Source of the DNA: Lingula anatina
Lineage: Eukaryota > Animalia > Brachiopoda
DNA: 64,000 nucleotides
Reading direction: 5' to 3'
Assembly: GCA_051362555.1 (NCBI GenBank)
Contig: CM120644.1
Coordinates: forward strand, 7,200,954-7,264,953
The notes under the pieces were generated by a model. It was not told the origin of the DNA and searched no databases. It was given only the letters and a program-made list of their open reading frames with translations. The position numbers and the translations under genes were made by a program. Positions 6,149 through 35,932 of this stretch are shown one piece after another (the first letter of the stretch is position 1; every line of letters starts with the position of its first letter).

Positions 6149-6280
6149 ATTCATCCACTTCATTCAGATAAAGTTACTGCCATAATATGTGACTTTTTTA
6201 AAGCAGTCTAGGCTGTAACTTGCCTCTCGACTGCTTTTTGGCGGATGTATTTAAAAAAAACAAGACGGGGTATTCATATT

Positions 6281-7620: not shown

Positions 7621-7844
7621 TTTTTACAATGACTTTCTTTTGAGCTGAGATTTAGTTTGGTATAGCCTATGACGTGAAATAGCACAAAGGGACGATTTAA
7701 GTGTTAGCAAGCACCAAAGAAGAGGGAGTCATTAGTAAACGTTCAAATGTGTTAAATCTTTTGCACTTGCCATTCCAGCAATATTGCAACGATGTGAATT
7801 TTGAGAAAAAAGTTTTTGGCAGACAATGCCGCCGAAAGGATACT

Positions 7845-8096: not shown

Positions 8097-8624
8097 TCAG
8101 ATGCTTTTATTTTCACTTTGGTTTACAACGAGATTGTAACGTCTGACTTCACCTGTGACGTTATAGAGCACGACGATAGATAAAGCGGTTCACACTATAT
8201 GGCAGTTTTGGTTTTGAGTAGTCTTTGCCATTTCTAATGGCCACTGTGGAGTTGCCCCGGGTACTGTAAGACAATACGAACTTTCTTGATGAGCAAGGCC
8301 CGGGAGGAGCCGAGGGTATCAAAAACAACAAAATGGTAGATCGGTTGAAGCGATAGCGGTGTCGTAACTTTCGAAAAGATAAGAAAAATTATCTTGCTGA
8401 TAATGTCTCCGAGACGACAGCACTCTCTGATGAAAGGGCAGTATGACGAGAATGGCGCCATGCCGGTTTAGCTATTGGCTCAATTCAAATTTGATCTGTT
8501 GCGTAGCTGGTAAAGGATAGAGATCAGGGACCATTCCCGCCTAAGCATCATTTTAAGAAACATTAAATAAAGTGTAAAAAAGTGCTACTGACGCGGCAGA
8601 CTTTATGATAACAACCAGCAAAAA

Positions 8625-9612: not shown

Positions 9613-11138
9613 AGCGTACCTGGCGGGGAATAACCTCATTAATCGAGGTATTTAACTATTCTGCATTGTGTCAGTCGCACTTTCTCGGTTGCTGCTGAGT
9701 GCTAATCTTTGACAAAGGTTCCTGCAGGCGCAGGAATGCCCAATCCTGTTTTGAACCAGTTGGAATTTTATAATTTAAATTAGCCTGTTTGTCATGGTAG
9801 ATTTCAACTGATTAACTGGTTGGAACTTAACTGATTTAGTCGGTTAATTTACCTACCGATCGTTAATCAGTTACATCAACATGATTGTTAGTTGGACACA
9901 TATTGAACAGTTGAATCGGTTGGTTTAAACCATTTTTCCCCAGTTTTTTAACCGAAGTGTTTTTAGAGTGTACTCACAGCATATAGGTTAATAACACGCA
10001 AGCAGCCAGTTGATATTTCGCTTTAAGGTAAGACGCTCCTTTGACTAGGGAGGACGCATTTATTTGAGGAAGTGAACGAAGACCCCATTTCAACTATATC
10101 TCTCAGCCCAACCACCCGCTTCATTTAGATATAGTTACTGTTGTTATAAATGACGGTTGTTTTTGATGCAGTTTAGGCAGAAACTCTCCCATTGGCCGAT
10201 TTTTGGCGGATTTTCAAATAAATATACGTGTATGGAGATATCTACGTAGGCTATTAATATTCCTAGGCATCTGCAGCACCTTTTGCAGGTCTACTCAAAA
10301 TATCTACATTACTTCTAGTAATAAATTCTACTGGATGTGATGTAAACATGACAGAGCCATTGGCTGAGAAATATATGCTTTGAAAGGGGTGGGTGGGTGG
10401 GGCAGATGTCGAGGGACTACAGCACATGTTCAGTGGAATTTAAGGCCTGTGGCACTCATCTAGCTAGATGAAGGGAAAGTTGAGTTCGTCTGATGAACTG
10501 GAGAAAGGAAACGCCAATTACATTTTATAAAGATCCAACAAATACATGTATATTTTTTCACATCTTTCGGGTCACTGCCAATTCTTCCTCCGCACTCCGC
10601 ACACACATACGCACACACACATATACCCGAACAATGTAAAAAAGTTCATCATTGCATGTACTTGTATATTTCGCCAAATTATGGTAAAAATAGCTCATAC
10701 ACAAGAGGTATCTGGTCCCCTTGTTAATTAAGTTACAGATGAATATGATGTGTATACGCCATGTACGGTATATAAGCAAGCTACCGGTCTAACTATATAT
10801 CTTGAAATGCGTTTTATACACTGTACCTATAGCTATGTGTAATGTGTAATTACAATAAATACTGGTACGTAGTATCATTTGCAAGTAATGAGGGACATGC
10901 AACCTCCCCAGTCCTTTTCTCAAATACAATTTAGAAGCAAAAAAGAGTACAATGTGTTTTCCCGCGTGATAAATTAACTCTATATTTCATTTACAGAATT
11001 CGTTTCAGCATGCAAAGTAGCCTAATGTGGAATTCTTTAATTACACAACACAATAAGGGTCATAAAATTGAAGACAAGCATACTAAAATACTGAAATTAA
11101 AGGCAAAATCCGGATCGATTTGGGATTTGTATAACTTG

Positions 11139-13654
11139 TTAAGTTCTCGGCCGGGCACACACGGTGAACTTCGGTGGCACGTACACAGAGCCGGTGGTAC
11201 CAACTGGGGCCGGAAGCACCTCTCCATCGGGCACCTGGAACGTGAAAGTGTGCACCAAGGCTGTGAGGATCAGGAACATCTCCGGTTTGGCCAGACTCTC
11301 TCCTGGACAGGAACGCTTGCCTTGAAAAAAAGAAATGGATTCGTTATTTTCAGTTATTCAGTAGTTGTTGAAATGTGTTCAATAGTGTTTAAGAGCGCAT
11401 TCTCAACGAATTAAGCCAGGCTTTACAAAGCCGGTGACCTAAAAATGGCGGACGTACATGAAAGAAAAACCGCCTAATCTTTTAATAGTCTCTCCGCCTC
11501 CCCACACGTTGTCCCTGCGGGGTACAGTAATTAAATCTCGTCTCCGTTCGCCATGCGGAAGCTACCTGAGAAATATTAAGTGCGCATGCTCATCAGTTAA
11601 ACTCGTGGTGAAGAAAGCATGGCGGCTGAAGGCGATCGAAGGAAAAAAGCTCTTCTGTTCTATTGTCTTTGAAAACAGAGACGAAAAAGGAATAATTTGG
11701 CCCGTAGAGCAGCAATGAATCGACTATCTACGGAGATAATATCACCAGAGATATTCACGGAAATATTAATGTTCGGAGCCGAGATTTAATTACTGTATCC
11801 CGCAGGGACGACGTGTGGGGAGGCGTGTGAGAGGCGGAGAGACTATTAAAAGATCAGGCGGTTTTTCTTTCATGTACGTCCGCCATTTTTAGGTCACCGG
11901 CTTTGTAAAGCCTGGCTTAATTCGTTGAGAATGCGCTCTAACATTACTAATTCTGTGCTATCACTTACATTATGCTATTATCACCGTTGTGGCATATGGC
12001 ATGAAGAATGCGTTAATGTGTCAAACAATGTTTGAATTGAATTGCAGCGATTGAGGTCTGAATAAAGAACGGGTTTATTTAATTGAAGGATTCCTTAAGT
12101 ATGATAAGAAAAGAAGCCAACAAGTTTTAAAATAAACATTTTACAACCATGTCTTGCTCCGACAGTGACATAAACAGTTCAATACCTAACGAAAATGGTA
12201 TAAATCCTTCGACTTTTTTCACGTTGCCACAGTCGTCCATAAACCTCATTGGTGGAAAATCGTGAGGATTGGACCAAATCCTTTCGTTCATGAATATTGA
12301 CCAGTAGTTTGCCATAAGTTGAGTTCCCTTGGGTATCAAGTAACCATGAACTCTGATGTCCTGTGTAGCTTTGTGGGGAGCCGAGAACGGTGTTATGTTA
12401 TTACAGCGCTGTATCTCCATTAGGGTAGCGCAAGTGAAGGGAAGCTTTGGTCTGTCTTCAAGTGTTGGGCGACGTGATTTCCCCACAACTTCATCCAACT
12501 CTGATTGGAGCTTCTTGCATACGTCTGGATAAGACAACAAGAAAAGCATCCCCCATGTCAAAGCCGTCGACGTCGTTTCCGATCCAGTAACGTACAATGT
12601 TTGACAATTAGCTTTGAGGTCTTCAGTGTCAAACAGCGACTTTGAGTTCTGGTCGTTCTCGTTTGTTTGGTGCATCATTGTATCAATAAGGCCTCGTGTT
12701 GCCAATGGGTTGTAACCCATTTTGTGCTTTTCCAGAATTCGGTTAACGGCTTCTGCGAAAGCTTCCCAGGCAATTGACAATTTTCGACACTGAGGCAAAA
12801 ACCACAGAAACGGGAGAAAGTTCTGGACGGAGGCTTGACTACTTAATTTGGCTGCGTTGTGATAAGCATTTATTAACGCTTGGAAGTCAGGATCGTCATA
12901 TTCCTGTCTGCTACCAAACAATATGGTCCCTATGACGTTGGATGTGGAAGCACTTACAGCATTGTTGAAATCGAACGGTTGTCCGCTTTTGTGTCTTATG
13001 TATTGGATAAGGGCGTCGATTTCATCTTCTGTGTGCTTTTCCACGTCAAGCTTTGACAGATATTTAATGATAAACTCTCGCTGGCGTTTAAACCCCTTGC
13101 TGTAATCAGCGCACAATATACCTGTAAGATACCAAAATTGCCTTTTCATATATTACGTCTATGGTACAATGTCTTCTGTTGAGAATTTACCTATAACATT
13201 GTATTTTGTCCCTTTTTTCCATTGTAAATCACACTCTCTGTGTCGCCTGTGGATTAATTTTTTTCTTTGAAACCATACGAGATACAAATATCTATAACCT
13301 ACCTTTTCCGCGTAGAAAATCAAAAGTCAGAAGATGCGGCCTGCCAGAAGACAATGCTCCCTTTCTCTGAAACACATCTCGGATAGCTTCATAACCATTC
13401 AACATAACGATTGTTCTGGTTCCCATTTTGACGGTGAATATGTTGCCATACTTTTTAGCCCACTCCATTAAGGTAAGCTGTGGATCCTTCCGAAGAAAGG
13501 GGAGAACGCCTAAAACTGGCACCCCCCATGGTCCCGGGGGCAGGTACACACTCTTGCTGTCCTTCACCAAAATTAGGAAAAGCACCACCAAAAGAAGGCA
13601 TAATAATAGAGTTGTATCTACTAGCTGGCCAACTTGCGTTTCGAGCAAGGCCAT
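11139..13654 (-). CDS. Cytochrome P450 clan 2 gene B, intact; exons 13654-13303, 13121-12186, 11320-11139
   Basis: PPGP, VTGSETT, MEIQR, FSLG|KRSCPGE; phase-1 GT-AG introns at the same positions as the paralogs; no stops seen. Confidence 0.93.
11393..11938. mobile_element. Tourist-like (PIF/Harbinger) MITE, 546 bp, in intron 2 of CYP gene B
   Basis: Near-perfect TIRs of about 140 bp (GAGCGCATTCTCAACGAATTAAGCCAGG...), TAA TSD; the site is empty in gene D intron 2. Confidence 0.92.
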
Positions 13655-14718
13655 TTTGAAAATTACTGCAGCAGCTGCGACCTAAATATTGTCCGTTATC
13701 GGTCGTGTCTGTTTAGTTTTCGGTTTATCGTGTGACATGTACATAACCTTGACACCACGTCGCTGAGACAAGGTACTCAATACGTTCATTAAAGATGCAG
13801 TTTTGAAAAGCCAGTCAAAAGTCGGCTACAGTAAAGTCAAGTCGGCTCTGGGTTCTTTATACCACGCCCCACTTTGCTTAGAAGGTTTTTTTTTAATTTT
13901 TTATGGCATGCTTTTGGTCGTGAATGAACGAGTACGTGAATGCTGTAAACGTTCCCACCTTTCATAAGAAAATATAGTTCAGCTACCGTATGGGACGCTG
14001 AAAGCTACCAGTAGCACACGAACTACAGTGTATACCTTTTACTACAACCTTGCTTCAGCCCATACATGCTGCCTGTCAAGCGGGTATATATATATATATA
14101 GACAGGAGGTTCCGTTTATAAAGAACTAGCTTGTCCCCGGACAGGGTCGATTAACCCACGGCTTCCCACTCTGGAGGATGACACTCTAACGACAAGAAAT
14201 CCAGTCAGTTGTCAGTGGTGATTATATAACAACCACTTTGCTAAGGTAGTGCCACTGTTTGTTTTTAACCAAAATAATTATATTTTCATTCTTGTTGAGG
14301 AAAAAAGAACAGCATGATTCGTTCTGTATGCATTTTATTGATTATTTGTATTGTACTGGAAACCGTTGTAAAGGTAGTAAAAGGGGCCTATTTGTGTTTT
14401 TACCCAATTTATCCTTTTTTATCTTCTTGTTATGGGAGATGAGACCTTCATGACGCACTTTTAATGAGTTTGTTGAAAAATGTTTTTGCGCTTGGAAATG
14501 TGATACCATGTAAGCAGTGCTTAAAACTTTTCTGACACCCTTTGTTGATTCTTTGGAATTATTGGCTAAATCTGATTAATATTGAAATTAAATCCAAACC
14601 ACAATGACCATTTATGTAACACAGAAATATAATATGTAAAGAAAAGGTGATGCTGACATGTTTGAATAATGTTAAGAGCAAACCCCTAATAGTCCTTCGT
14701 GTAAGTTTTATAATCGTA

Positions 14719-16532
14719 TTAGTATTTTGGTCGGGCACACACGGCGAACTTCGGCGACATGTACACAGCGCCAGTGATACCAACTGGGGCCGGAAGCACC
14801 TCTCCATCTGGCACGTGGAACGTGAAAGCGTGCACCAAGGTTGTGAGGATCAGAAACATCTCCGGTCTGGCAAGACTCTCTCCTGGGCAGGAACGCTTGC
14901 CTTGAAAACAATAAGGATATTTTCAGTTCTTCGAATGTGTTTTACAACTAATTTTGCACTTACATGAGACTATTATCAATATTATGGCATGTTTTCAAAT
15001 CATCAGCACATGACATACAAAATGCAAAAATATAACCAACAATACTTGCATTAATTTGCATCAACTTATTTTTGAATAAAAGAACGGGGTTTATTTTATT
15101 GTAAAGATGCTTATGATAAGTATGACAACAAAATTAGCCGTTATTTATTAATTTTAATTTTACACAAATACATTTCTCCGGAAATGGACAATAACAGTTC
15201 AAATACCTAACGAAAATGGTATAAATCCTTCGACTTTTTTCACATTGCCACGGTCGTCAATAAACCTCATCGGTTGAAAGTCGTATGGATTGGGCCAAAC
15301 TGTTTCGTTCATGAATATTGACCAGTAGTTTGCCATAAGTTGAGTCCCCTTGGGTATCAAGTAACCATGAACTCTGATGTCCTGTGTAGCTTTGTGAGGA
15401 ACCGAGAACGGTGATGTGTTATTACAACGCTGGATTTCCATTAGGGTAGCGCAAGTGAAGGGAAGATTTGGCCTGTCATCAAGTGTTGGGCGACGTGATT
15501 TCCCCACGACTTCATCCAACTCTGATTGAAGCTTGTTGCAGACATCTGGATAAGACAACAAGAACAGCATCCCCCATGTCAAAACTGCCGCGACCCTTTC
15601 CGAACCGCTGGCATACAAAGTTTGACAATTACCTTTGACATCATCGAAGTCGAACAATGACCCTTCATTCAAATCGTTCATGTTTATTTGATGCATCATA
15701 GCATCAGTAAGCCCTCGTGTTGCCAATGGCCTGTAACCCTTTTTATGCTTTTCCAGAATTCGGTTAACGGCTTCTGCGAAAGCTTCCCAGGCAATTGACA
15801 ATTTTCTGCACTGAGGCAAAAACCACAGAAACGGAAGAAAGTTCTGGATGGAGGCTTGGCTACTTAGTTTGATCGCGTGGTGGTAGGCATTAATTAACGC
15901 TTGGAAGTCTGGGTCGTCGTATTCCTGTCTGCTGCCAAACAATATGGCCCCTATGATGTTAGATGTGGAAGCACTAACAGCACTGTTGAAGTCGAACGGT
16001 TGTCCGTTTTTGTGCCTTATGTATTGAATAAGAGCGTCGACTTCATCTTCAATGTGCTTTTCCACGTCAAGCTTTGACAAATATTTTATGATAAACTCTC
16101 GCTGTCGTTTAAATGCCTTGTTGTAATCAGCGCATAATATACCTGGAAGATATATAATAATATATATTGATCTCTGTTCAATCATTACGCCTGATCATTC
16201 TGGAACTGTGTTTGATCTGAGGCCATAAAGAGGTTTGATTAAGTCCATAGGTACAGAATGTTTTAGAAGGACTGTCTTGAAATTGTTGGGGAGACATAAT
16301 GAGGGGAAAGAGAAGTGAAAAAGAGAAAAATATCCAGAACACCTCAGAGACGAGCAATTCTACATAGAACGTATGTAAATTAAAGGAATGTCTACCTCTA
16401 CAGTAATATATTGTTGACATGACACTTTCTGTCTTGTCTGTGTTTATTTATTTATTTATTTTAATTTATTATTATCATTATTATTTTTTATTTTATTTTA
16501 TTATTATTTTATTTTATTATTATTATTATTAT

Positions 16533-16573
<41 letters not shown>

Positions 16574-16957
16574 ACACCATAAAGTCAAATTTCTCTGTAA
16601 CCTACCTTTCCCACGGAGAAACCCAAAGGCCGGAAGATGCGGCCTGCCAGAAGATGAGGCTCCCTGTCTCTGAAACACATCTCGGATAGCTTCATAACCG
16701 TTCAATATAACCGTTGTTGTGGTTCCCATTTTGACGGTGAAAATGTTGCCATACTTCTTGGCCCATTTCATCATAGTCAGCTGGGGATCTTTGTCGAGGA
16801 GGGGTAAGACGCCGACAACCGGGAAACCCCACGGGCCAGGAGGGAGGTTGAATCGATCTCGCTGCCTTGCAAGCAAAAGGAGTAAAAGAAATGCCACCGT
16901 GCACAGTACTATTGACATATCAAGAAAATCGCCGTATGATGCTCTCATCGAAGCCAT
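14719..16957 (-). CDS. Cytochrome P450 clan 2 gene C, intact, atypical I-helix (ASGSERVA); exons 16957-16606, 16142-15207, 14900-14719
   Basis: Same exon lengths as gene B (352/936/182 nt), heme motif FSLG|KRSCPGE, ExxR present. Confidence 0.93.
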
Positions 16958-18072
16958 TGCGAAACTGGTATGCGTACCCGTATACGTACAAACATATTAT
17001 GCAGCCATAACATTACGTGACTTGCGTGATGATCGAAATGACGGTAGTCTAATTTTGGATACCTTTGTGTTGCATTGTATACACTTGAAAACATTATGGC
17101 GGTTATAACTATCATGTGATTTTTTTTTTACTTGTCTTCAATGCATTGTAGAGTCGTCTGTTATACAGGTATGCTTATGACTACCAGTATGTGTCTACGT
17201 AACAAAAATAAGCTGCATAGATCAGTTAATATTAACCGAATACCCTGTAGTACAATGTACACAGTCCTTCATGAACCCCGTAGAAAAGGGCCCACTAAGA
17301 GGAAATAATTCTTTAGTTTATAAAATTATGAAAAAGAAAATCAGTAAATTCTTACTAATCTGCATTTATTGATAGTACATATGATTAGTAATGTGCCTTT
17401 TTAACAACTAGAATATTATTGTATAAAAACATTTAACGCTTTCAGAAATAATCAGAAATATATATTAAAATACATATACCAAAATATGATTTTTTCTATA
17501 TACCTTTTACTGCAACCTTGCTTCAGCCCATATTTGCTGCGTGTCAAGCGAGTATATATAGACAGCAGGATAACACTATGACCACATGAAATCAGTTGTC
17601 AGTTGTCAGTGGTGATCATATAACAAGCACCTTGCTAATGTAGTGCCACTGTTTGCTTTTCACCATAAATAGTCATATTTGCATTCTCGCTAAGGAAAAA
17701 AAGAGAACTGCATGTTTCGCTTTGAATGCGTTTTCTTGATTTTTTGCATTGTGCTGGAAACCGTTGTAAATTTATGTTATTGTCATGGGACCTGACGCAC
17801 TTTGAATGAGTTTGATTAAATTTTTTTTGCGCCTGGGAACGTGATACCATGTAAACAGTATTGAAAATTTTTCTGTCACTCTTTGTTCATTCTTTGAAAT
17901 TGTTGGCCAAATCTGATTGATATTGAAATTAGATCCAAATTACAACTACCCTTTATTTAACTCAGGAAAATAATGTTTAATAAAAAGTTGACACAAAACA
18001 TGTATGCTTTTACGACCACTTCCGATATAAATAAGGTTAAGAAGAAACCCCTAATAGTCCTTCATGTAACTT

Positions 18073-20399
18073 TTAGTATCTTGGTCGGGCACACACGCTG
18101 AACTTTGGTGGCACGTACACAGAGCCGGTGGTACCAACTGGGGCCGGAAGCACCTCTCCATGGGGCACGTGGAACGTGAAAGTGTGCACCAAGGCTGTGA
18201 GGATCAGGAACATCTCCGGTCTGGCCAGACTCTCTCCTGGACAGGAACGCTTGCCTTAAAAACAGTAAGGATATAGGTATTTTAGGTTCTTCAATAGTGA
18301 TTTACAATACTAATTTTGTACTAGCACCTACATGAGATTCTTCATCGTTGTGGTATGTTTTCAAAATTTTCGGCAAATTACAAAATAATGCATTGATATA
18401 TCAAACAATGCTTGCATTAAATTGCAGCGATTAAGGTCTAAATAAAGAACGGAGTTTATTTAATCATAGATCTATATGATGAGTATGATAACAAAAGTAG
18501 CCGACAATTCTTTAATATATAAAATTTTACAACCATGTCTTGCTCCGACAGTGACATAAACAGTTCAATACCTAACGAAAATGGTATAAATCCTTCGACA
18601 TTTTTCACGTTTCCACAGTCATCCATAAATCTCATCGGTTGAAAGTCATGAGGATTGGGCCAAACCGGGCCAACGTCCATGAATACTGACCAGTAGTTTG
18701 CCATTAGTTGAGACCCCTTGGGTATCAAGTAGCCATGAACTCTGATGTCCTGTGTAGCTTTGTGGGGAGCCGAGAACGGTATTATGTTATTACAACGCTA
18801 TATTTCCATGAGGCTAGCGCAAGCGAAGGGAAGGTTTGGTCTGTCTTCAAGTGTTGGGCGACGTGATTTCCCCACGACTTTATCCAACTCTGATTGGAGC
18901 TTCTAGCAGATGTCTGAATAAGACAATAGGAAGAGCATGCCCCATGTGAAAGCCGTCGACGTCGTTTCCGATCCAGTAACGTACAGTGTTTGACAATTAG
19001 CTTTGAGGTCTTCAGTGTCAAACAGCGAATTTTCATTCTGCTCCTTCCCGTTTATTTGGTGTATAATTGCATCAATAAGCCCTCGTGTTGCCAATGGGTT
19101 GTAACCCATTTTGTGCTTTTCCAGAATTCGGTTAACGGCTTCTGCGAAAGCTTCCCAGGCAATTGCCAATTTTCGGCACTGAGGCAAAAACCACAGAAAC
19201 GGAAGAAAGTTCTGGATGGAGGCTTCGCTACACAATTTGACTGCGTTGTGGTAGGCATTTATTAGCGCTTGGAAGTCTGGATCGACGTATTCCTGTCTGC
19301 TACCAAACAATATGGCCCCTATGATGTTAGATGTGGAAGCACTAACAGCACTGTTAAAGTCGAACGGTTGTCCGTTTTTGTGCCTTATGTATTGGATAAG
19401 GGCGTCGACTTCATCTTCAATGTGCTTTTCCACGTCAACCTTTGATAAATATTTTATGATAAACTCTCGCTGTCGTTTTAACCCATTGCTGTAATCAGCG
19501 CATAATATACCTAGAAGATAAGACATAACTCTACAAATAAAAAAGGAAGACTGTTTGGTCGAAATTGTATTTGAATTAATGTTTTTGTATTGCGTTGAAA
19601 GGGAAAACGCTCGATTTCATGTTCATCTAAATGCGTATTTTGTTTCTTTTCGAAAGCATAATACCTGGTCATATTGATCACTTTTCAATAATAACATCTG
19701 ATGCATATGGTTCTGGAACTGTGTTTAGTTTGATCTGAGGTCGTAAAGAGGTGTAATTAAGCCTATAGCTAGAGAGTATTTCAGAGAGACTGACTTGAAA
19801 TTGTACGGGAAACATAAATGAGAAGAGAGAGAGAGAGGCGAGAATTAAAGAGAAAAAAGGAGACCCAGAAAACCCTAGCTTTACGGGGTTTCTTGGTATA
19901 GCCCCTCTCTCATAGGTGCTTCCTTCCACAGCGAAGAACAATTTGACATAGAACCTAGCTATAAATAATATTCATCTCTACAGGAATATCTTGTAAGCAT
20001 GACTCCTTTTTCAGACACCATAAATGTTAATAATCTCTATAACCTACCTTTCCCACGGAGAAACCCGAAACTCGGAATATGCGGCCTGCCAGAAGACAAG
20101 GCTCCCTGTTTCTGAAACACATCTCGAATAGCTTCATAACCGTTCAATATAACCGTTGTTGTGGTTCCCATTTTGACGGTGAAAATGTTGCCATACTTCT
20201 TGGCCCATTTCATCATTGTCAGCTGGGGATCTTTGTCGAGGAGGGGTAAAACGCCGACAACAGGGAAACCCCATGGACCAGGAGGGAGGTTAAAACGATC
20301 TCGTTGTCTTGCAAGCCAAAGGAGTAAAAGAAATGCCACCGTGCACAGCACTACTGATATATCAAGAAAATCGCTGTATGATGCCTTCACTGAAGCCAT
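18073..20399 (-). pseudogene. Cytochrome P450 clan 2 gene D with in-frame TAG at 18905-18903; exons 20399-20048, 19510-18572, 18254-18073
   Basis: TGC TAG AAG CTC where gene B has TGC AAG AAG CTC; the frame continues intact after the stop (one extra codon, MDVGPVW), with splice sites and heme motif preserved. Confidence 0.87.
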
Positions 20400-20708
20400 C
20401 TTGTGACTGGTATGCTAGCTTATATACATACAGACATATAACACAGCTACAACGTTACGTGACTTGCGTGATGATCGAAATGACGGTAGTCTAATTTTGG
20501 AAACCTTTGTGTTGCATTGTACAATTGAATACACTATGGGATTTTTTCTCGTCTTCAATACATTTCTGAGTCGACTGCAATATGCGTTTGGCTACCAGTG
20601 CGTGTCTATATAACAAAAATCAGCTGCGTAGACTACGTTATATTAACCGAGTACCCTGTAGTACGTACACAGTCCTTCATGAACCCCTCAGCAAAGGGCC
20701 CACTAACA

Positions 20709-21609: not shown

Positions 21610-21911
21610 TTGGTCTGTGGTGACACGTCTCCATAAGTGAGCTAGCTGTATATTTGGTCAAGTTGGCATTTACACGTACGTCTGTAAACATTAGGGCTAT
21701 TTTCGCCGGTTCACTTCTGATTTCCATCATTTGATGCTACACACGAAACTCTTTGTCACCTAAGACTAAAAGTGGAATATGTGAAAGGCCAAATTTATGT
21801 CTAAATGTTCCTTTTATTAATCAAATCATTTCCGTATGTAGAGATGTAATTCCTGCCATTAACGATTGACTTCCCGCTACAGCTGTGCAATATATTGGAA
21901 GAATATCACTG

Positions 21912-24900
21912 ATGAATGCTTATGGACTAAGTATACTGTTGAAGATGGGATGCGTCTGTGGGAAGGAATCCATAAGGATCAACAATGAGAAATATTTTGT
22001 AAGGTCAAGGCTTGGTGAAGGGTAAGTGGAAGGAAAATATATTTAACTTAGAATGATTTACAGCTAAGAAAGGATTACACATACTAGTACATGTACAAAT
22101 GTGTGGTTTACTATAATAGTAATTTCATTTTTATCATTAATTTGGTGTGTGTGTGTGGAAGGGGGGGAGGTAATTAGTCATTTTATGCATGCTTTTGTTT
22201 TAAAATATTTGATGAAAATGTCCATTTAATCAGAAAATTGTTAGCTTTTAAGAAAATCATCTGTGCTTGAACTTAATGATCTGATTGCTTCCTCCATTTT
22301 CAATGAAAAGATTAGAAGAAAATGTTGCTGGTGGTAGAAATCGAAGAAAAGAAGGAATAAATGTACTAGATATGTTGTGACTATACTGTATCGCTAAGCA
22401 TTTTTGGTATACTCCAGTTGTATTTTTATCCATAAGGCTAGGTCATGTTAGAGACAACAGTTAGAGACAAAATATTTATTATTTCAAGAAGCCAGGAAAG
22501 GTAATACTACAGTACATGCAGGAATGCAGATTGAGGCCCGTATGATTAGACAGGGGTGTCTCAATAGTCCGAAGGTTCATTGGTCCGAAGGTTCATTGGT
22601 CCGAAAAGTGGTAACATTTTTATCGATTTTTTAATCAAGGGTTCATTGGTCCAAAGGTTCTATAGTGAACATTCGGACCAATGAACCTTCGGACTATTGA
22701 ACCTTCGGACTATCGCTACGGCCCCGATTTGACTTACATACAGGTTAGGGTTACTTCAAAGGTATCAGAATAAGTAATGGCCAGTGTATATGGGAAATGA
22801 CCTACGCCTCCATGCTATATGTGACACAGCAGCACATTTTTTATTCCCTCCATATTCCAGGGGGTTCAGCGTAGTGGATCTGGTGGAACACACCAGAAGT
22901 CACAGAAAATTTGCACTCAAGCGTATCCAGTGTCACTCCAAGGAAGATGAGAGAGATGCCATGAGAGAGGTGGAGATCTGCCAAGATATCAGCCACCCCA
23001 ATATCATCAAGGTTGAGGACCACATGCTGGTGCCTGTACAGCCTGTGAGTGCCAGCTCTGCAAGGAGTGAATTGTTGGTGTTGTTGCCATTCTTTAGGGT
23101 AAGACTGTGAACAATATTTATAAGGTATTTGCCTATTTTGAGTGCTGTTATGCCCCTTGGCTCTTGATTTATGGATTTCCACCTAATAGCGGCTGCCAGC
23201 ACTGGTGGCTCATATGAGAAAAATATTGTTGTGACACAAATATTTTTTTACACTTTCACTTTAAGAAATGGGCCTAAATATCCCTTACTCAAAATTAATT
23301 TTCTTTGTGAGGCTAGGTACAACTTCCATATGCCCCAATTAAAAACTGACAGTAATCTCAAATTGACTGTCCTCGTGTAAGACAGAGAGTCCTAAAGGCA
23401 GCTTCCCACTTGCCTGGCTAGTGTCTTGATTTATGTGCATGATCTCATTTTGAAATAACTGTACTATAGTAATTTTCTGTCCTGTGCTCGATATTCCAGA
23501 CATTTAATCTCTAGGTAATTGTACCCATGCTTGTTTTATGCTGTTCCAGAGAGGGACCTTACAAGATGAGATAGAGAGGATGGAGAGGAAACATGAACAC
23601 ATTCCAGAGAGCAGGATAATCAAGTTATTTACTGATATATGTGAAGCTGTGAGAGTTCTCCATCACCACCAGCCTCACCCTATAGCACATAGGTAAATCT
23701 AACACTGCCACATCTAACACAATGCCACACCTAACACACTATCACATCCAACACAGTGTGAGAGTTCTTCATCACCACCAGCCTCTTCCTATAACACATA
23801 GGTAAATCTAATTCACTAGTTACATCTAACACATTGTCACAACCAGCACACTCTGAGAGTTGTCCATCCACCGGCAGACTTGCCCTACAGCACACGGGTA
23901 AATCTAATGCTGTCACATCCAACAAAATGCTATAGATCTACCTAACAGACTGTCACTACCTACAACACTGATGTTATAACTACGGTAACTATAGTGACTG
24001 TATAATTCAATGATGAGTGAGAATCCAGTTCAACTGAAAAGATCAAATGAAAAATGTAAATTAATGAGTGAAAGTGTATTAAATGAAGTAATCACGTTCT
24101 TAACAATTATGTATTATCTTGTGTTGAGTAAATGAAAAGAGAAAGAAAAAAATGTTTTGATTAAGAAAAGTTTGTCCACAGGCCGCAGTTGTCACTTGCA
24201 GTATACATGTATTATATAAAAGTACAGTATGAAAATGGCCTAAGTACAAAAAAAAAAAAAAAAAACTAAAAAAAGTATAGACAGAAAAAAACCATTTGAT
24301 TTTTACGAAAAAGTTAGTTTGGCATATTTTGTCACAGAGATCTGAAACCAGGCAATCTCATGCTGGCAGATGATGGCACAGTGGTACTGATGGATTTTGG
24401 ATCTGCTGCCAAAGCAAGGGTAGAAATAAATGGGCACTCTCAGGCATTAGCACTCCAGGTATGTTACTACCATAGGCTTAGGGACCATTCCCAGACCCTG
24501 TCGTACTGTGGATCAATCTACATGTATCTCCGAGGGGATTCTCACTAAATTGCAATCAATTTAAGTGTAATAGATGTCTGGCATGCCTACTGAAGCTGCT
24601 AGAAGGTAATTAATTTTTGTTTAGCAGCTTCAGTAGGCATGCCAGACATCTACGCTGCTTAAGCTGAAAGCAATTTTGTGAGAAAACCCTAGGAGATGGA
24701 TTGATCCTGTTAGATGGATCTAGGTATGGGAACCAAGTCTTTCACATTTGTAAGTCCTTTAATAACTTAAGGTTTTCTGAGAATTTTCTAAGTGTTGCAG
24801 GTTTTTTTAAAATTTCATTTGCTGTATTTCAGTACCCAGTCTCACATTATCTAAAAAGTATGTCTCTAGCCAGCAATTTTAAAAGGGGGTGTGGAGCTCT

Positions 24901-27226
24901 TTAAAAAATTAACCTTCTTCTCTATCTAGTTGACCTAAGTTGAAAAACGGCACAGAACATATATCAAGTTATAATTCAGAGCCAGGCCTGTAGCTGGCAA
25001 TTTTTTGAGGAGGGTGGTGGTGGTGAAGGGCAGGTTCTCAAAGTATGGTCTTTTTATCATGAAACTTTATATACCTGATTCTTATTTTACCTAAACTGGG
25101 CCCTTTCCTTGCAAAAAGGATGGTTTGTTCACCCCCCACCCCCCAAGCTACAGCTTGAGAGCGGACTTTTTCCAACCAAAGAGTCAGTTCCTTAGACCCC
25201 CCCCCCCCCCCCACAAAAAAAAAAAAAAAAAAAATCTTAAATGAAGAATACTATGTACAACAATTAAGGTGCAGGGAGATATAGTCAAATTCCAGCAGAG
25301 TTCAATCTCTATTCATAATTTTGAACATTGTTGTAGTTAGTTTGTTTCCCCCCCTATATTTTGTTAATTCAGAAACATGATAATTAAATTAGTGAACTTA
25401 ATAAGAGACTGGTGTTAAGTACCTTGCAGGTTCTTTTTTTTTTTTGTATGATTGTCCATTTTGTTGCAAGATCAGGCTGCTGAAAGAAGTTTATTCTGTT
25501 CCAGGACTTGGCTGCAGAGAGATGCTCCATGCCTTACAGAGCCCCAGAACTGTTTAACATTCCCAGCTATTCCACTATTGATGAAAAGACAGATATATGG
25601 GTGAGAATCATGTTTTAGCAATGAAAGAAGAAATAAGGTTCATTGCAACTAATGCACCATAGGCCCCATTCAGAATGGATGTTCTGAGTACTTATCAAAA
25701 GCAATGCTGCCGATTCCCGTTTCCACCAAACCTTTAAATGGATTAAATTTCTGCTCCAAGGTTTTGATCTGTGGTCAGCCACATTTAATTGGCAGATCAG
25801 TAAGTACTCAAATCGTCAATTCTGAATGGGGCCACAGAGGCTGTGATAAAGTACATGAAATGAATCCCAGATTGCTACATGAATTCATGTCTTTTGACAA
25901 AAAAGTAAAAAGAAAAGCTACAAGAGAAATATATATGGGCTCTGTTTCAGTCCCTGGGCTGTGTATTCTATACACTACTGTATGCAAGCTCTGTTGTCTA
26001 TATTTCAGTCCTTGGGCTGTGTACTCTTTACAGTATTGTATGTGAGTTCTGTTGTCAATATTTCAGTCCCTGGGCTGTGTACTTTATACTGTACTGTATG
26101 TGAGCTCTGTTGTCAATATTTCAGTCCCTGGGCTGTGTACTCTATACTGTACTGTATGTGAGTTCTGTTGTGAATATTTAAGTCCCTGGGCTGTGTACTC
26201 TTTACAGTATTGTATGTGAGTTCTGTTGTCAATATTTCAGTCCCTGGGCTGTGTACTTTATACTGTACTGTATGTGAGCTCTGTTGTCAATATTTCAGTC
26301 CCTGGGCTGTGTAATCTATACTGTACTGTATGTGAGTTCTTTTGTGAATATTTCAGTCCCTGGGCTGTGTACTCTATACTGTACTGTATGTGAGTTCTTT
26401 TGTGAATATTTCAGTCCTTGGGCTGTGTACTCTATACTGTACTGTATGTGAGTTCTTTTGTGAATATTTCAGTCCCTGGGCTGTGTACTCTATGCCTTGG
26501 CATACCTGAAGTCTCCATTTGATGATGTGTACCAGAGAGGGGACAGTATTGCACTGGCCGTGGGCTCTGGCAATATCAGGTTTCCACAAGATGAAACGTG
26601 AGTTAAAGTAGTAATAACCGTGCAACAAATCATTATATGTGAAGTAGTGCACTGTCGGATCTTACATGATGTCACACCCAGCACACTGTCCCACCTATCA
26701 CAATGTCACAGCCATCTCACAGTCACACCTATCACATTTTCACAATTATTGCAATGTCACACCCAGTTCAATGTCACACCTATCACACTGTCACACCTAT
26801 CAGACTGTCACACCTATCGCACTTTCAAATTAATTACAATGTTACACCCAGCACACTGTCACACCTATCACAATGTCACACCCAACACACTGTCACACCT
26901 ATTACAGATATCACATTATCACATCTATCATAATGTCACACCTAGCACAATGTCATACTTATCACACTTTCACACTTATTACAATGTCACACCCAGCACA
27001 GTGTCACACCTATCACAGCTATTACACTGTGATACCATATAAAATGCCACATCTTGCATACTCACACCAGACACCTGACTCTGCCCTTGAATGTTTCAGA
27101 TATTCCCAGGAACTGAGAGACCTGATACTATTCATGTTACAAGTAGAACACACAGAGAGACCAAACATTGAAACTGTTATAGCCAGGCTGGAGGCTCTGA
27201 GGAATGTGCTGGAGAATAGGATATGA
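21912..27226 (+). CDS. STK16: Serine/threonine kinase 16 (NAK family); exons 21912-22021, 22861-23098, 23550-23692, 24338-24458, 25505-25600, 26473-26597, 27100-27226
   Basis: MGCVC N-terminal acylation-type motif, LGEGGFS, ALKRIQCH, HR|DLKPGN, MDFGS, QDLAAERCSMPYRAPELF, TDIW|SLGC, GDSIALAV; consistent GT-AG phases. Confidence 0.95.
22553..22725. mobile_element. MITE with inverted arrays of a 15-bp repeat (GTCCGAAGGTTCATT)
   Basis: Direct repeats on the left are mirrored as AATGAACCTTCGGAC on the right; GGGG...CCCC ends. Confidence 0.7.
24481..24734. mobile_element. Palindromic MITE in STK16 intron 4
   Basis: Perfect internal inverted repeat TAGATGTCTGGCATGCCTACTGAAGCTGCTA / TAGCAGCTTCAGTAGGCATGCCAGACATCTA; termini related to the CCCATTCCCAGA family. 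Confidence 0.7.
24983..25157. mobile_element. MITE, CAGG..GTAGC family, 5-bp TSD (AGAGC)
   Basis: CAGGCCTGTAGCT...AGCTACAGCTTG, AGAGC on both flanks. Confidence 0.75.
25662..25833. mobile_element. Short MITE in STK16 intron 5
   Basis: TIR GGCCCCATTCAGAAT / ATTCTGAATGGGGCC. Confidence 0.7.
25945..26493 (+). repeat. 58-bp minisatellite made of the STK16 exon 6 splice acceptor plus exon start (10 acceptor copies)
   Basis: AG|TCC(C/T)TGGGCTGTGTA starts at 25951, 26009, 26067, 26125, 26183, 26241, 26299, 26357, 26415 and 26473. Confidence 0.95.
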
Positions 27227-27510
27227 GGCTTCAGGCTTACAGATGTGTACACCCAACACATTGTCACACCTAACACACTGTCACACTCAATACACTGGCA
27301 CACCTAACACACTGTCACATCTAACACACTGGTCAAACCTAACATAATTTCACACTCAACACACTGGCACACCTAACACACTGTCATATCTAACATATAG
27401 TCACAACCAGTCCAATATCACAACCAACATACTGTCACACCTAACACATTTACACATAACAATCTCACCTCTAACACACCACACCTAACCCAACATTACA
27501 CCAAACACAC
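26660..27510. repeat. Degenerate (ACACACTGTCACACCTA)-type minisatellite flanking STK16 exon 7; also present at about 23700-23970
   Basis: Recurrent TGTCACACC/ACACACTG units of about 18 bp; source of the spurious His/Thr-rich ORFs. Confidence 0.85.
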
Positions 27511-29236
27511 TGTTTCAACTATCAGCCTGACAAATCTATTATTGTTGTTGTGTTTTACTTACTGTTATTCTGAAGTTGTTGATAGTTGTTAAATCCAACA
27601 CGATCACCAGGAAAGAACATGTAAAGGTTACAGGTTTTAATGGAGTGCATGATTGGACTTATACACAGAGAGGTTTCGTGTAGATTGCCTGATTTGTGCA
27701 AAAGGTATTGTGGGTGATATATTTCAGTGGTCTTTCATTACATGTATTTGACGTGTGATTTGGGTAGGATTTTTAACTTATATGGGTGCTATCAGGGATA
27801 TGCCCTCCAAATGAACAATTCTTTTAATGAAAGTTATCGGACTTAATAAAATGCACAGAGCTTCAAAAATTATGTAGGCATGTTCTTGTTTGTCTTGACT
27901 GGCACAAATCTGCTTCCATGTAGTCCTTTAAGCATATGTGTGTAGTAAGCAAATTTTATTTGCTATAACCGATGCCAGCATATAGAAATTGCAACGCAAA
28001 GTTATTTGTTGTGTAATATGCAGGACAAGTAATGATTCAGTTGAAAGTGTACCAGACTAGAACTTGAATGCCAATAAATGAAAACATTTCTTTGCTTTTG
28101 TAAACCAATTTTCATCACTTTAGAGAGAATATGTATTAAAGTAGAAAAAAGTATCAGAAACAAAATATTATGATGTAAAGACATGTTTATTTATTCCAAA
28201 TATTCAAGCGAGCAACAAAATTTCCAGTTTAATTATGGGAAATGAAAGTCCCAAGAAATTGATATGTGAACATGTGTTTTACCTTTTTATCACACAAAAA
28301 TTACTCCTCCCTCCCTTCCTTTGTACAGCTTTCAATTTCAAAAATGTGGAAGCAAGTAAAAATATTAGAATGTTAGTAACGTAGACATACTTCTTGAAAG
28401 TACTTTTTCAATCCTCAAAAATATTATTTTACAGTGCTTTGAACATAAGCATGCAAGCAATTTTTTCAGAGGATTAATTTCTAAATTGGTTTTCTGTAAA
28501 ATGGTTCTCTTCTTTTACATTAATGACTTTAATTAAAAATTAAAGGGATAATAAGTCTTCGTTTTGGCCAAAAAATGAATTTTCTTGAAGTAAACAACAA
28601 TTTTCCCATACTTACCAATGGTTAATGAATCCATTTTTACGTTCAAAGTTAGTCCCTGTTTTTTTTCTAAAAAGTTTGTTTTGTTTTTTGTTATAATTAT
28701 AGATTATTACAGAGTATAGCCATCAATGGAGGTCACGCAGTCTAAAGACAAGCTCAGATATCAAAATAATAGCTATAACTGCTGTTTTTGTGGTAAAAAA
28801 AAGAATATATTATATTTCTGTGAGTTGTTCACAATGTTTTTATTGTGAAATATAGATCTCATACGAATAGTTATTATCCCTTTAAAGAAATACAAAGTGA
28901 ATTGTTTTAAAATCATGTCATAGTTTATGAAAGTTCAATACATAGTCAATAGAAATTGAAAAGTAAACATCGAAATTATGTAAATAGTTTTTCAACATTC
29001 GTAAGCGTGTAACATTCAATATACATGAAGCTTACACATATGGTTAAAAAGACCCCCTCCCCATTGTGTTCCCACAATTTGAATTAATTCCTTTCAGTAT
29101 CTTGATACAAGGTACCTGCAGTACTGCATTCTTCGTAAGCAAGATGCAAGATGCATGCACACAAAAGGAATTTCATAATTGTGAATGGGGCTATAATACT
29201 GTTTGGCAATAAAACAACTCCTCAAAATTTAACATC

Positions 29237-32200: not shown

Positions 32201-34823
32201 AAAAAAAAAAACATTATAAAGATCTGAAGAAAAAATTGAAAAATAGGCCGGGGCCTAAAAATAAATAAAAAACTTCAAGCGTGAGATTATGGAAAAAGAA
32301 AGTAAAAGCTGTGAAGTTTTACACGGGGATTCTACTTACAAAAAATTCAAGACTTTTTGTGTAACAACAAAGAGAAAGTTTTGTATGTAATATCCTTTTT
32401 GTGTGTGATTTATTGATAAGTGATCATTTTAAATGTAGTAGGCTTATCACAGGTTTTAGTCTCTCATAACCCTTAGTAGGGTGGGTTCTATTTTTTTTTA
32501 ACGTGAGACGTTAATAAAATTTTTATTATAATGTATCCAGTCCCATATACGTTAATACTTATTTGTACAAACGGGGCTCATACTATCAAGATCAACAGAG
32601 ACACACGAAGAAGAAAGTACATCGGCTCTTGTTGAACGCGTTATCAGCAAAATAAATAGTTATTTATTTCTGAACTCAATGACAAGAGAATTGGAAAATT
32701 CAATGAGCATATATTTAAAAAAAAAAAAAATGCAGGAAAGCCTTTCTGTATGCTACACGTACATAATACATGTATGGTAAATACAAAATGGATAATAAAA
32801 ATAATCTAACAACGTATTTGTAAAGTAATACAAATATGCTTAGTATTAAAGTATGCCTACGTATATTTAACTGTCTTAGATAGTTGAAAAGTTTAAAATG
32901 TGTGGAAAACACTTTATTTGAATGATTTTATTGTCTTTGATTGAAAACGATGAAAATACGCACGAAAACATTAAAAAATCAAATAATTTGGCTTCTTGCA
33001 ATATTTCTGTTTTTGCCTGACGGTTTTGGTTCAGTTTGACAAAATTTTCTACTTGTCAGACCGAAAGTCCGACATTTTTTACCTGTCGTAAATTTTGTAC
33101 ATATACTAGAGTAAGACACGGTAAACTTTAATTATCTTCTGGGAAAGACTCAAGAATTCCTGTCTCACCTATTTAACACTTAAAATTAGAAGGTTTTAAT
33201 TACAGAGGAAAGGTCGTAGTTGTGGCCGCCCCCCTTACCGAACAATTGAACAAGTAACACCTGATGCCTTATCAGGTACCAAACGATTTAATCAGTTCAC
33301 CGACGAACGAGCTGCGTGTCAGTTTTACCTGTATACACAGTTGGTACGAGTCAAACAATTCATTTTATCACTTCAAAAATCTCTTAAGACATCCTTCAAA
33401 CAAGACATAAAAATCGTAAAGAATTGACACTGCCTTAAATGAGGTGATATCGCCACAGCTTGCATATATACATGCAATATTGTGAAGACGTAGGCCTACG
33501 CACCTGTCCACACTCTTGAAAGCTGTGAACGAGTCTACTGGCTATTTTGATTTTATATATAAAAAATAACGAGTCTCTTTCGCATATCTTTATTATCGGA
33601 AGCATTTAAAAGAACTCTGAAGCTTTAGTTTATCAACACTATTGAAAGTGCAGCCAAGGCTCGGACGCTTAGGTGAAGTCTAGTTGTACAGCGCATCGTA
33701 TTTAAACTGAGAAAGAAAACATTTAATTGCTTGATTCTCCGTCCAAATAGCTGTTTCTTGCCTACAGTTTAAGCATTTCTGTGCTTCAGCCACCTTTTCA
33801 GTTTGACAGAAAGCAGTGCACGCTTCATACGACCTTTTTACATGCGCACCTTGTACATAATCTACACCTAGCATTGCCATGCTGGAAACAGCAGAGGACC
33901 ACCATGACCCCTGTGGCGCGCGTTTCCTGTCATGCGCACTTCGTATTTCCGCAAAAGATGAAAAAGGTCTATAGCGTCATTGTTTTTTGTGGGTGACGTA
34001 GAAAGTGGTGATATATCAGATAGTGTGCTGCCACTTGTATCACTTGAAAAAGAAGTACCTGGTGATGGCTGCCCAACCGAAGTACTGTGTTCACTAAAGC
34101 TGGGGGACGACGTTACACTTTTGGGAGAGCCCCTCTTCCCTGTTGTAATGGCTCGACTAAACCCTGACAGTGTCGACATCTGGTGTTGGGACGAGGTAGA
34201 GCACCACGTTGTCGTGCCATAGTCTGGGAGAGAACAGATAATGAACAACTTTTTGCCGGAATCAAAGTTTTTTGTAAGTTTTCCTTGTGTCGTGTGTGTC
34301 TGCGTGGTGCCAAGGGCTCAGTTTCTATCTTTTCGTTTTGGCAATGCATGCATGTGTCAAATAGTCAGTTTATCTTTTTTAAACATGTGTACTGTTCTTA
34401 TTGCGGAATAATATCTAGCAGTTAATAATTCAAGTGCCTGAGAGAGAGAGAGAGAGAGAGAGCGAGAGCGAGCTCATTTTGTACAATAGTACATAAGTGC
34501 ATACATGTATCAACCCACCCGATTTAAGGAAACACCACGGCACGTTTTTGTTTTTGCATTCAGAAGTAGTGCAGGGATTCCAACAGCAGCCCTCATTTTC
34601 GCAGGTCATCTTTGTCAACTTGGCATGAACTTTGTTTATACAGTCCTCTTTGCCCGCATTCATAACCTGGCATCCAGTGTCATCTGTGAAAATGCATATA
34701 CCTTTTGTAGGATTATATAATTGGTTTAGAACTGAAAATTTACTGAAGAAAATATATTTCGGGTGGTATAATCTGTGGACTTGATCCCCCTGGAGTAGTA
34801 GATCGATTTCTTTTCCCCTTTGC

Positions 34824-34863
<40 letters not shown>

Positions 34864-35932
34864 ATTTTAGTAGTCTTGGTCAACAGTCGAAACGAACTGA
34901 AACGATACTACATTGTACAATTTGAGAATAATTACTGGTTATGTCAGACAAAATTTAAAGCCGTATGATATACAAAATAACCTAGTATCTTAGCTAGAGA
35001 CAACAAGTGTTAAACAGATCAACGCCCTCTCAGTTCCAAAGAGAGCGTGCCTCCATCTGAGGTTCCCCTTTCTTGGGAAAGCTCGGATTTTAACCGACAT
35101 ATGGGTTAACGCATGTCCATACACCGTACTAATACTACAATATATGGTAAAAAGATCTGTTGGTTTCACCTTTCTATTCCATGTTAAGTAATCAGGAGAA
35201 GAATAAAATGTATAAAGATGAGCTCAATTGTTGTTAAACGTTTGCCGTACTGGCGTTAGTTTGGATTACGTTGAGAGCTGTAATGCCTGTTTAATGATGC
35301 CCAGATGACAATGTTTTGACAGCCTTTCGACAAATTTCTTGGTACATTCTGTACTTGATATATCAGTTTTTCTTATCTAACTATCCACCTTTGACCGGTC
35401 AAAAATACGTAGTTTTGCGTGACTCGATCACTGGAAAACACTTACCTGTTGGCTCCAGATTGTGGAAGCAGAAATGATTACCGTTTGTTTCATTATAACA
35501 ACAACCGATCTCAACACAGCTTGTAGAGTTTTCATTTTTGCCGCATTCCTGTCTGGGCTCACCATTGTTACAGACATCTAAAATACAATTGATTGAGCAT
35601 AAAATAAAATTTAAATGATTCCTAAATGGAAAAAATAATTTTTATTTATTTTTTTTTTTTAATTGTCGCTGATGCAGTAAGTTTATTTGTTTAATAGAAC
35701 TACCGGTATTGTATTAATATGCATAACAATGACAAGTGTTGACTGCATATTGCACGCTTCCTTATATAGCATTCTTTCTTCGAAATAATATTACAAAGCC
35801 GAAACCATGAATTCAGATTCTGTTGGAATTCATGCAGCATGAATGCAAACCAGTATACTAACCCTGTCCGTGTAAGGTTGGTATCTTGAGGAGTATCAGC
35901 AGAAGGAAAATGCTGGCTGAAGATGACGCCAT
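29237..35932 (-). CDS. Type I membrane protein: signal peptide, two trefoil (P-type) domains, S/T-rich stalk (interrupted by a TIR element), TM helix, long Tyr-motif tail; exons 35932-35863, 35577-35446, 34683-34519, 34223-[insert]-31678, 31258-31180, 30582-30431, 30099-29237
   Basis: Signal MASSSASIFLLLILLKIPTLHGQ; trefoil patterns CNNGEPRQECG..SCVEIGCCY..FCF and CQV..EDC..TCENEGCCW..PWCF in phase 1-1 exons; TM VVPVAVSVGLLVLIGIVIAVVMWY; exon phases join consistently once the insert is removed. Confidence 0.82.
31811..33970. mobile_element. 2.16-kb non-autonomous TIR DNA transposon inserted in the stalk exon of the trefoil receptor
   Basis: TIRs AGACCTTTTTCATCTTTT(C)CGGAAAT / ATTTCCG(C)AAAAGATGAAAAAGGTCT, flanked by AT on both sides (equivalently TATA); removing it restores the reading frame. 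Confidence 0.88.

What the first reader, a model, noticed from the sequence alone, without database searches (positions are those of the whole stretch)
25945..26597. Nine decoy copies of the STK16 exon 6 acceptor, most forming an in-frame 33-nt micro-exon
Seen: the 58-bp unit is tatttcag|TCCCTGGGCTGTGTACTCTATACTGTACTGTAT|gtgag(t/c).... It contains the true acceptor, the first 7 codons of exon 6 (SLGCVLY), 4 new codons (TVLY) and a consensus-like donor (copy 1 has gcaagc instead). Only the tenth copy continues into kinase sequence. Units 2-3 and 5-6 share diagnostic variants, suggesting a 174-bp higher-order duplication. Known: 25 nt is below the usual spliceosomal intron minimum, so adjacent units could not both be included. 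Inference: the spliceosome must skip nine upstream near-identical acceptors, or it may include micro-exons that add 11 residues at kinase helix F. The array could act as a copy-number-tunable splicing element or a cradle for new exons.
Basis: partly seen in the sequence, partly recalled or inferred. Interest (0 to 1): 0.8.

Follow-up and report, generated by a model that had tools for sequence, protein, structure and literature searches.

The report
Silent decoy splice acceptors in STK16
In a brachiopod kinase gene, a 58-base repeat has stacked nine look-alike exon starts in front of the real one, yet the RNA reads examined all splice to the real one, so this is likely a harmless repeat of varying length, of a kind known from human genes.

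Summary
The array is real: 9.5 copies of a 58-bp unit (92% identity) reiterate the acceptor and first 21 nt of coding exon 6 of Lingula anatina STK16. Eight of nine upstream copies are followed by a GTGAG donor-like site, giving in-frame 33-nt pseudo-exons. It is not an assembly artefact. Contigs of 3 of 4 DNA runs laid hold it (the fourth does not cover it). Depth suggests about 3 units in one run and 8–12 in another. In four RNA runs (three studies), all 36 listed reads entering exon 6 from upstream come straight from exon 5, and none lies on unit 9. The RefSeq protein lacks the insert, and 120 of 120 aligned STK16 proteins have no indel there. Best reading: a boundary-spanning minisatellite whose decoys are spliced out, likely because only the last acceptor opens a full-length exon. 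It is an acceptor-side, multi-copy relative of human F7 IVS7 and CBS 844ins68. Rare or tissue-restricted inclusion (up to about 8–11%) and NMD-hidden products are not excluded; the RNA donors were not genotyped. The scan noted such arrays before in an annelid and a sea urchin. Two more boundary-spanning repeats lie in this window.

The parts
21912..27226 (+). STK16 coding span, 7 coding exons: 21912-22021, 22861-23098, 23550-23692, 24338-24458, 25505-25600, 26473-26597, 27100-27226 (960 nt = 319 aa + stop)
   Evidence: tblastn of P0001 (Lingula anatina STK16, XP_013389730.1) on the window, one residue different; splice sites read
25505..25600 (+). Coding exon 5; donor TGG|GTGAGA; its end is what RNA reads carry before exon 6
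   Evidence: loose-end consensus
25945..26493 (+). 58-bp tandem array, 9.5 copies: 21 nt of exon start + 12 nt + 25-nt spacer (donor-like start, acceptor end)
   Evidence: held by DNA contigs of X1, X3, X7
25951..25983 (+). Unit 1 pseudo-exon (most diverged, 7 of 58 bases from the consensus), followed by GC, not GT
26009..26447 (+). Units 2-9: eight 33-nt in-frame pseudo-exons (starts 26009, 26067, 26125, 26183, 26241, 26299, 26357, 26415), each AG|33 nt|GTGAG, 25 nt apart
   Evidence: no RNA depth on unit 9 in 4 of 4 runs
26013..26360 (+). 174-bp higher-order duplication (26013-26186 against 26187-26360, 3 differences)
26473..26597 (+). True coding exon 6 (125 nt), acceptor TTTCAG at 26467-26472, donor AAC|GTGAGT
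   Evidence: 36 loose ends matching exon 5; joints from 26596/26597 into exon 7 in all four runs
27100..27226 (+). Coding part of the last exon
23648..23907 (+). Second boundary repeat in the same gene: last 45 nt of exon 3 plus its donor GTAAATCTAA in three copies (100%, 93%, 60%), out of frame if used
   Evidence: (family D7); not tested with RNA

Best explanation
The array is a minisatellite, likely variable in copy number, that copied the intron 5 acceptor and the first 21 bases of STK16 exon 6, and in the RNA examined it is removed with intron 5, likely because only the last acceptor opens a normal-sized exon. Shown: the array, its presence in three DNA runs with different unit types, and direct exon 5 to exon 6 splicing in 36 of 36 listed reads. 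Inferred: growth by slippage or unequal crossing-over (one 174-bp step is visible); copy number from contig depth; and the selection rule. The decoy sites look as strong as the true ones, so context probably decides. The last acceptor is followed by a 125-nt exon with purine-rich words and its donor. Each decoy is followed after only 33 nt by a donor, too short for ordinary exon definition, and has only 25 nt back to the previous donor-like site. The embedded donor may also keep decoys from pairing with the true exon 6 donor (untested). The array would then be close to neutral.
For:: loose ends before 26472 in 10+13+3+10 reads (X10, X11, X13, X16; three studies) have the exon 5 end as consensus, agreement 0.98-1; depth is 0 at 26415-26470 in 4 of 4 runs; no joint from 26447. 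0 of 36 gives a 95% upper bound of 8%, or 11% without the diverged X16. P0001 has no insert and its cluster has one member. D234-F252 is 19 residues in 120 of 120 aligned STK16 proteins, with D234, W236, C240 and P251 invariant; array contigs in X1, X3 and X7; word-depth sums give about 2.7-3.0 units in X3, 8-12 in X1 and at least 4-7 in X7; X3 lacks the variants of window units 7-9 and has another unit type after unit 1. Decoy and true sites are alike in U1 matches (5-6 against 6), pyrimidines (10-13 against 12 of 17) and predicted accessibility. The unit 8 pseudo-exon has 0 GAR words and exon 6 has 4. Two more boundary repeats in 64 kb point to a general mutational process. Precedents: distal acceptor used in CBS 844ins68; silent pseudo-donors in F7, LMNB2 and PDGF.
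Against: The RNA donors were not genotyped for the array: no intronic reads covered it, X10 and X11 carry other alleles at 27102 and 27148, and X16 differs at about 8 of 125 exon 6 bases. Only 36 junction reads, tissues unknown. The stretch laid held only unit 9, so one or two reads from units 1, 2 or 5 (under 92% like unit 9) could go unlisted, and 3 loose-end rows were not shown. Nine of 45 reads covering 26487 have no listed loose end (about what reads starting near the exon start would give, my estimate). Read-through products from all nine decoys have early stops 75-494 nt before the next junction and could be hidden by NMD. In two known donor-side arrays (6-16, CBS IVS13) the nearest pseudo-sites are used. 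The perfect donor motif and the kept frame are a coincidence of roughly 1-2%. The exon-definition step was not tested.
Confidence: 0.8

Rival explanations
1. Regulated micro-exon: in some tissue or stage (for example neural) one 33-nt unit is included, adding 11 residues at the end of helix F, and more copies give more inclusion.
For: Nine of nine units are in frame and stop-free, eight with GTGAG donors as good as the true one. Inclusion would keep DIWSLGCVLY and a Tyr four residues later. Repeats at exon-intron boundaries can create alternative splicing (PMC2812944 abstract). Tissues of the RNA runs are unknown.
Against: 0 of 36 reads and no depth on unit 9; no isoform in the P0001 cluster; no indel in this segment in 120 of 120 homologs, inside or at the end of a predicted core helix 232-247. 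Neural microexons have a lengthened branchpoint-to-acceptor region (PMC12871342 passages), whereas units 2-9 have a donor-like site 25 nt upstream. Unit types differ between samples, so no single unit looks conserved.
Confidence: 0.1
2. Hidden leak: decoy acceptors are used with read-through to the true donor, the products carry early stops and are destroyed by NMD, so long arrays lower STK16 output.
For: All nine read-through forms have a stop 75-494 nt upstream of the exon 6/7 junction, which meets the usual NMD rule (recalled). Exon sizes of 183-299 nt for units 7-9 are ordinary.
Against: No read on the array in four runs. Exon 6 alleles appear in near-even shares in RNA (26514 T in 9 of 18 and 14 of 24 reads; 26526 A in 3 of 6), but these alleles are not phased with array length and the runs may be pools, so this is weak.
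Confidence: 0.08
3. Assembly artefact.
Against: Array contigs at several times flank depth in three DNA runs from three studies; X1 reproduces the window's unit 1 to unit 2 variant and gives 8-12 units; units differ by substitutions shared in patterns, without indels.
Confidence: 0.01

Closest known systems
Human CBS c.844_845ins68 (PMC7490669, PMC2630376, PMC1802585; passages read)
   Same: Tandem duplication across an acceptor (52 nt of intron 7 + 16 nt of exon 8); polymorphic; the distal site is favoured and the mRNA is normal.
   Different: One extra copy, not nine. Selection there is ascribed to G runs between the two sites. No donor-flanked in-frame pseudo-exon per unit is described in the passages read.
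Human F7 IVS7 37-bp VNTR, and the LMNB2, PDGF, CBS IVS13 and 6-16 minisatellites listed with it (PMC1557585; abstract and passages)
   Same: Minisatellite whose unit spans an exon-intron boundary; multi-copy (F7 alleles have 5-9 repeats); identical pseudo-sites stay silent in F7, LMNB2 and PDGF.
   Different: All are donor-side, where the first site wins. Here the acceptor is reiterated, the last site wins, and each unit carries both an acceptor and a donor.
Internal tandem repeats at exon-intron boundaries in primate paralogs (PMC2812944; parts 1-2 of 6 read)
   Same: Minisatellite expansion at exon-intron boundaries; repeats may be kept or spliced out.
   Different: Those cases lie in recent paralogs and have transcript support for changed structure. 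Here no changed transcript was seen, and no second STK16 above 57% identity was listed beside P0001.
Neural microexons (PMC12871342; passages)
   Same: Very short in-frame exon-like pieces with both splice sites.
   Different: Those are 3-27 nt, conserved, included in RNA, with extended branchpoint-to-acceptor regions. These are 33 nt, differ between samples and were not seen in RNA.

Membership tests
Boundary-spanning minisatellite with reiterated pseudo-splice sites (F7 IVS7 / CBS kind) | Repeat unit spans an authentic exon-intron boundary | tested here: met
   Unit holds the acceptor and first 21 nt of exon 6
Boundary-spanning minisatellite with reiterated pseudo-splice sites (F7 IVS7 / CBS kind) | Pseudo-sites identical or nearly identical to the authentic site | tested here: met
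   Acceptors of units 8, 9 and 10 are identical over 24 nt
Boundary-spanning minisatellite with reiterated pseudo-splice sites (F7 IVS7 / CBS kind) | Copy number varies between individuals | tested here: met
   About 3 units (X3) against 8-12 (X1) by word-depth sums, with different unit variants. Rough; not from spanning reads.
Boundary-spanning minisatellite with reiterated pseudo-splice sites (F7 IVS7 / CBS kind) | Authentic site used wholly or mainly | tested here: met
   36 of 36 listed junction reads; RNA donors not genotyped
Boundary-spanning minisatellite with reiterated pseudo-splice sites (F7 IVS7 / CBS kind) | Pseudo-sites are functional when the authentic site is removed (shown for F7) | not testable with these tools
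   Needs a minigene
Regulated microexon | Included in mRNA | tested here: not met
   0 of 36 reads; no depth on unit 9; tissues unknown, upper bound 8-11%
Regulated microexon | Short, frame-preserving, flanked by AG and GT | tested here: met
   33 nt, 8 of 9 with GT; longer than the 3-27 nt of PMC12871342
Regulated microexon | Conserved across species | tested here: inconclusive
   No insert in 120 aligned proteins, but no other brachiopod was named among them, and the diverged DNA run X19 did not cover the site
Mutually exclusive tandem exon array (Dscam or tropomyosin kind; features recalled) | Each copy can replace the others as a full alternative exon, one per transcript | tested here: not met
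   Copies hold 7 of 42 codons of exon 6 and none appeared in RNA
STK16 (NAK family kinase) | Full-length similarity to STK16 above other NAK kinases | tested here: met
   P0001 named STK16; best PDB hit 2BUJ STK16 E=8e-76 against AAK1 2e-41

The most novel reading that the evidence does not exclude
The array is an exon nursery with a dosage dial: in a tissue not sampled here one 33-nt unit is spliced in at a rate set by copy number, giving an STK16 with 11 extra residues at helix F, while the donor inside each unit shields the gene from out-of-frame use of the decoys and so lets the array grow.
Probability: 0.07. Interest if true: 0.65.

Novelty: new variant of a known kind. Interest (0 to 1): 0.3.

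Why it matters
As biology of this gene it is probably minor: the kinase mRNA looks normal. Its use is as a natural test case. Known multi-copy boundary minisatellites in the papers I read are donor-side, and F7 was used to work out how one of several identical donors is chosen. This locus offers the mirror experiment for acceptors: ten near-identical sites, alleles of about 3 to 10 units, and a donor inside each unit that can be removed in a minigene to ask whether exon length or the embedded donor silences the decoys. Three boundary-spanning repeats in one 64-kb window also suggest that such repeats may be common in this genome, which would matter for gene annotation and for ideas on how new exons start.

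Tried and rejected
No indexed RNA holder was listed; this is no evidence either way, and raw-read runs were laid instead. X19, laid as a possible outgroup, covered only 26538 onwards and says nothing on the array, so the ancestral acceptor is unknown. I therefore could not decide whether the 12 extra bases are old intron (a -37..+21 duplication) or a local copy of the preceding 12 bases (9 of 12 match). RNA structure masking the decoys: rejected as the main cause; mean predicted unpairing is 0.38-0.59 for decoys and 0.57 for the true acceptor. Weaker decoy sites: rejected (simple counts, no trained splice model). A branch-point motif scan was uninformative: 4 of 9 decoys, not the true site, and 3 of 5 other acceptors matched. 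A gene on another frame or strand across the array: three ORFs had no Pfam match. Recursive splicing: rejected, the acceptors are not followed by GT. The protein with the insert was not folded. Lievers 2001 is not held. Ten paper searches listed no paper on this locus or on a multi-copy acceptor-side array; the library lacks most subscription journals, so this does not show that none is in print. No supplements were read. The scan's notes had nothing on this genome or protein.

Full report
1. Observation. The window holds a tandem array at 25945-26493: period 58, 9.5 copies, 92% matches, no indels. Exon-like starts fall at 25951+58k. Nine give stop-free 11-codon pieces and the tenth, at 26473, runs on as kinase. 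Eight pieces are followed by GTGAG(T/C) and unit 1 by GCAAGC; 25 nt separate a donor-like site from the next acceptor. Units 2/5 differ at one base and 3/6 at none, and two adjacent 174-bp blocks differ at three.

2. The gene. Exon 6 finds P0001, STK16 of the brachiopod Lingula anatina (XP_013389730.1, 319 aa), at 98%. It maps to seven coding exons from 21912 to 27226 with one residue different. The best solved relative is STK16, 2BUJ. P0001 has no insert and is alone in its cluster. In an alignment of the 120 best of 972 homologs, D234-F252 is 19 residues in 120 of 120. An AlphaFold2 model (pLDDT 90.8) has one helix from 232 to 247; this is helix F by the usual kinase naming (recalled). A micro-exon would keep DIWSLGCVLY and add 11 residues before the invariant P251.

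3. RNA. Four raw RNA runs of the nine listed, from three studies, were laid on 26415-27250, which holds unit 9, exon 6 and exon 7 (6-25% of each run was read). Loose ends before 26472 number 10 (X10), 13 (X11), 3 (X13) and 10 (X16), each with the end of exon 5 as consensus. Depth at 26415-26470 is 0 in all four runs and no joint from 26447 is listed. Zero of 36 bounds inclusion at 8% (95%), or 11% without X16. Limits: tissues are unknown. Pieces from units 1, 2 and 5 are under 92% like unit 9, so one or two such reads per run could be unlisted, and three loose-end rows were cut. Nine of the 45 reads covering 26487 have no listed loose end, about what reads starting near the exon start would give (my estimate). 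The RNA donors carry other alleles and were not genotyped for the array.

4. DNA. Contigs of four of the DNA runs listed, from four studies, were laid on 26415-26668. X1, X3 and X7 hold the array as short contigs of raised depth; X19 covers only 26538 onwards. X1 matches the window in exon 6 and in the unit after unit 1, and may be the window's own source, so it is not independent. X3 has all four contigs listed. It has another unit type after unit 1, lacks the variants of window units 7-9, and sums to 2.7-3.0 units. X1 sums to 8-12 units (8 of 12 contigs listed, the rest inferred from bins) and X7 to at least 4-7 (8 of 20 listed). The tool warns that summed depth is no copy number, so these are rough; the difference in unit types does not depend on depth. 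The array goes with three different exon 6 haplotypes. RNA run X13 carries the X3-type bases (26526 A in 3 of 6 reads), and X10 and X11 carry the window-type bases at 26514 and 26547 in about half of their reads. It is therefore likely, not shown, that these RNA donors carry an array.

5. How it most likely works. Shown: the array exists, differs between samples, and is skipped in the RNA seen. Inferred: it grew by slippage or unequal crossing-over, and the last acceptor wins by exon definition. The decoy sites are not weaker by simple counts and are not hidden by predicted structure. What differs is downstream: 125 nt with four GAR words and a donor, against 33 nt with none in unit 8. Very short exons fit exon definition poorly, and true neural microexons have a lengthened branchpoint-to-acceptor region (PMC12871342, passages), which a 25-nt spacer with a donor-like site at its start does not obviously give. 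Use of a decoy with read-through would bring an early stop in 9 of 9 cases, so such products may be lost to NMD and are not excluded. The embedded donor and kept frame are a coincidence of about 1-2% (times one in three). That is notable but weak after selection among many repeats, and it could reflect survival of the least harmful units.

6. Comparison. Human CBS 844ins68 duplicates 52 nt of intron and 16 nt of exon, and the distal site is favoured, helped by G runs (PMC7490669, PMC2630376, PMC1802585; passages). F7 IVS7 is a 5-9-copy donor-side VNTR with silent pseudo-sites. The same paper lists LMNB2 and PDGF as silent, and 6-16 and CBS IVS13 as using two pseudo-sites (PMC1557585, abstract and passages). 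PMC2812944 (parts 1-2 of 6) shows that boundary repeats can change splicing in primate paralogs. PMC3265369 and PMC10078293 were seen only as search listings. The array meets the four testable features of the boundary-minisatellite kind. It fails the inclusion test for a microexon and the whole-exon test for a mutually exclusive array. What differs from the papers read is the combination: acceptor side, many copies, and a donor in every unit. Ten searches found no paper on it, within a limited library. The scan's own notes list similar acceptor arrays in an annelid and a sea urchin (unchecked AI notes).

7. Surroundings. The same gene has three copies of the end of exon 3 with its donor, and a secretin-family receptor exon at about 50139 has its last 28 nt and donor in three copies. 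Three cases in 64 kb make a general repeat process more plausible than a device special to this kinase. Whether this exceeds chance was not tested.

8. Verdict. Observation confirmed; interpretation partly supported. A real, likely length-variable and likely neutral array of silent decoy acceptors; new variant of a known kind; interest 0.3. The bold reading, copy-number-tuned micro-exon inclusion in an unsampled tissue, has about 7% probability.

Noticed in passing
window 23648-23907 (+): The last 45 nt of STK16 exon 3 and its donor occur three times (100%, 93%, 60%), spaced 109 and 96 nt by 17-bp repeat units; use of copy 2 or 3 would shift the frame.
   Followed up: partly
window 50058-50166 (-): A 34-bp repeat copies the last 28 nt and the GTATGT donor of an exon of a secretin-family receptor (Pfam 7tm_2) three times; the third donor has decayed. 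A hormone-receptor domain hit lies at 52391-52921 (-), below its curated cut-off.
   Followed up: partly
window 23693-23852, 26639-27060, 27249-27513 (+): A degenerate 17-bp minisatellite sits in STK16 introns 3 and 6 and in the transcribed 3' region, where RNA reads show other alleles.
   Followed up: no
window 1041-20414 (-): Tandem cluster of about four cytochrome P450 genes with large middle exons; the match of the copy nearest STK16 is split over two ORFs (18459-18797 and 18906-19616).
   Followed up: no
window 34433-34879 (-): Trefoil (P-type) domain match, E=1.8e-6.
   Followed up: no
window 8828-9519 (+): Tandem duplication with a period of about 340 bp at 89-96% identity; not examined.
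   Followed up: no
window 26473-27250, runs X16, X19, X7: Runs under the same species label differ strongly: X16 at about 8 of 125 exon 6 bases, X19 holds almost none of the window's words, and X7 has a second contig whose intron 6 loose end resembles X19's. This may reflect diverged lineages under one name.
   Followed up: no
window 21860-21911 (+): An acceptor-like CTACAG 30 nt before the STK16 start codon suggests a non-coding first exon further upstream.
   Followed up: no
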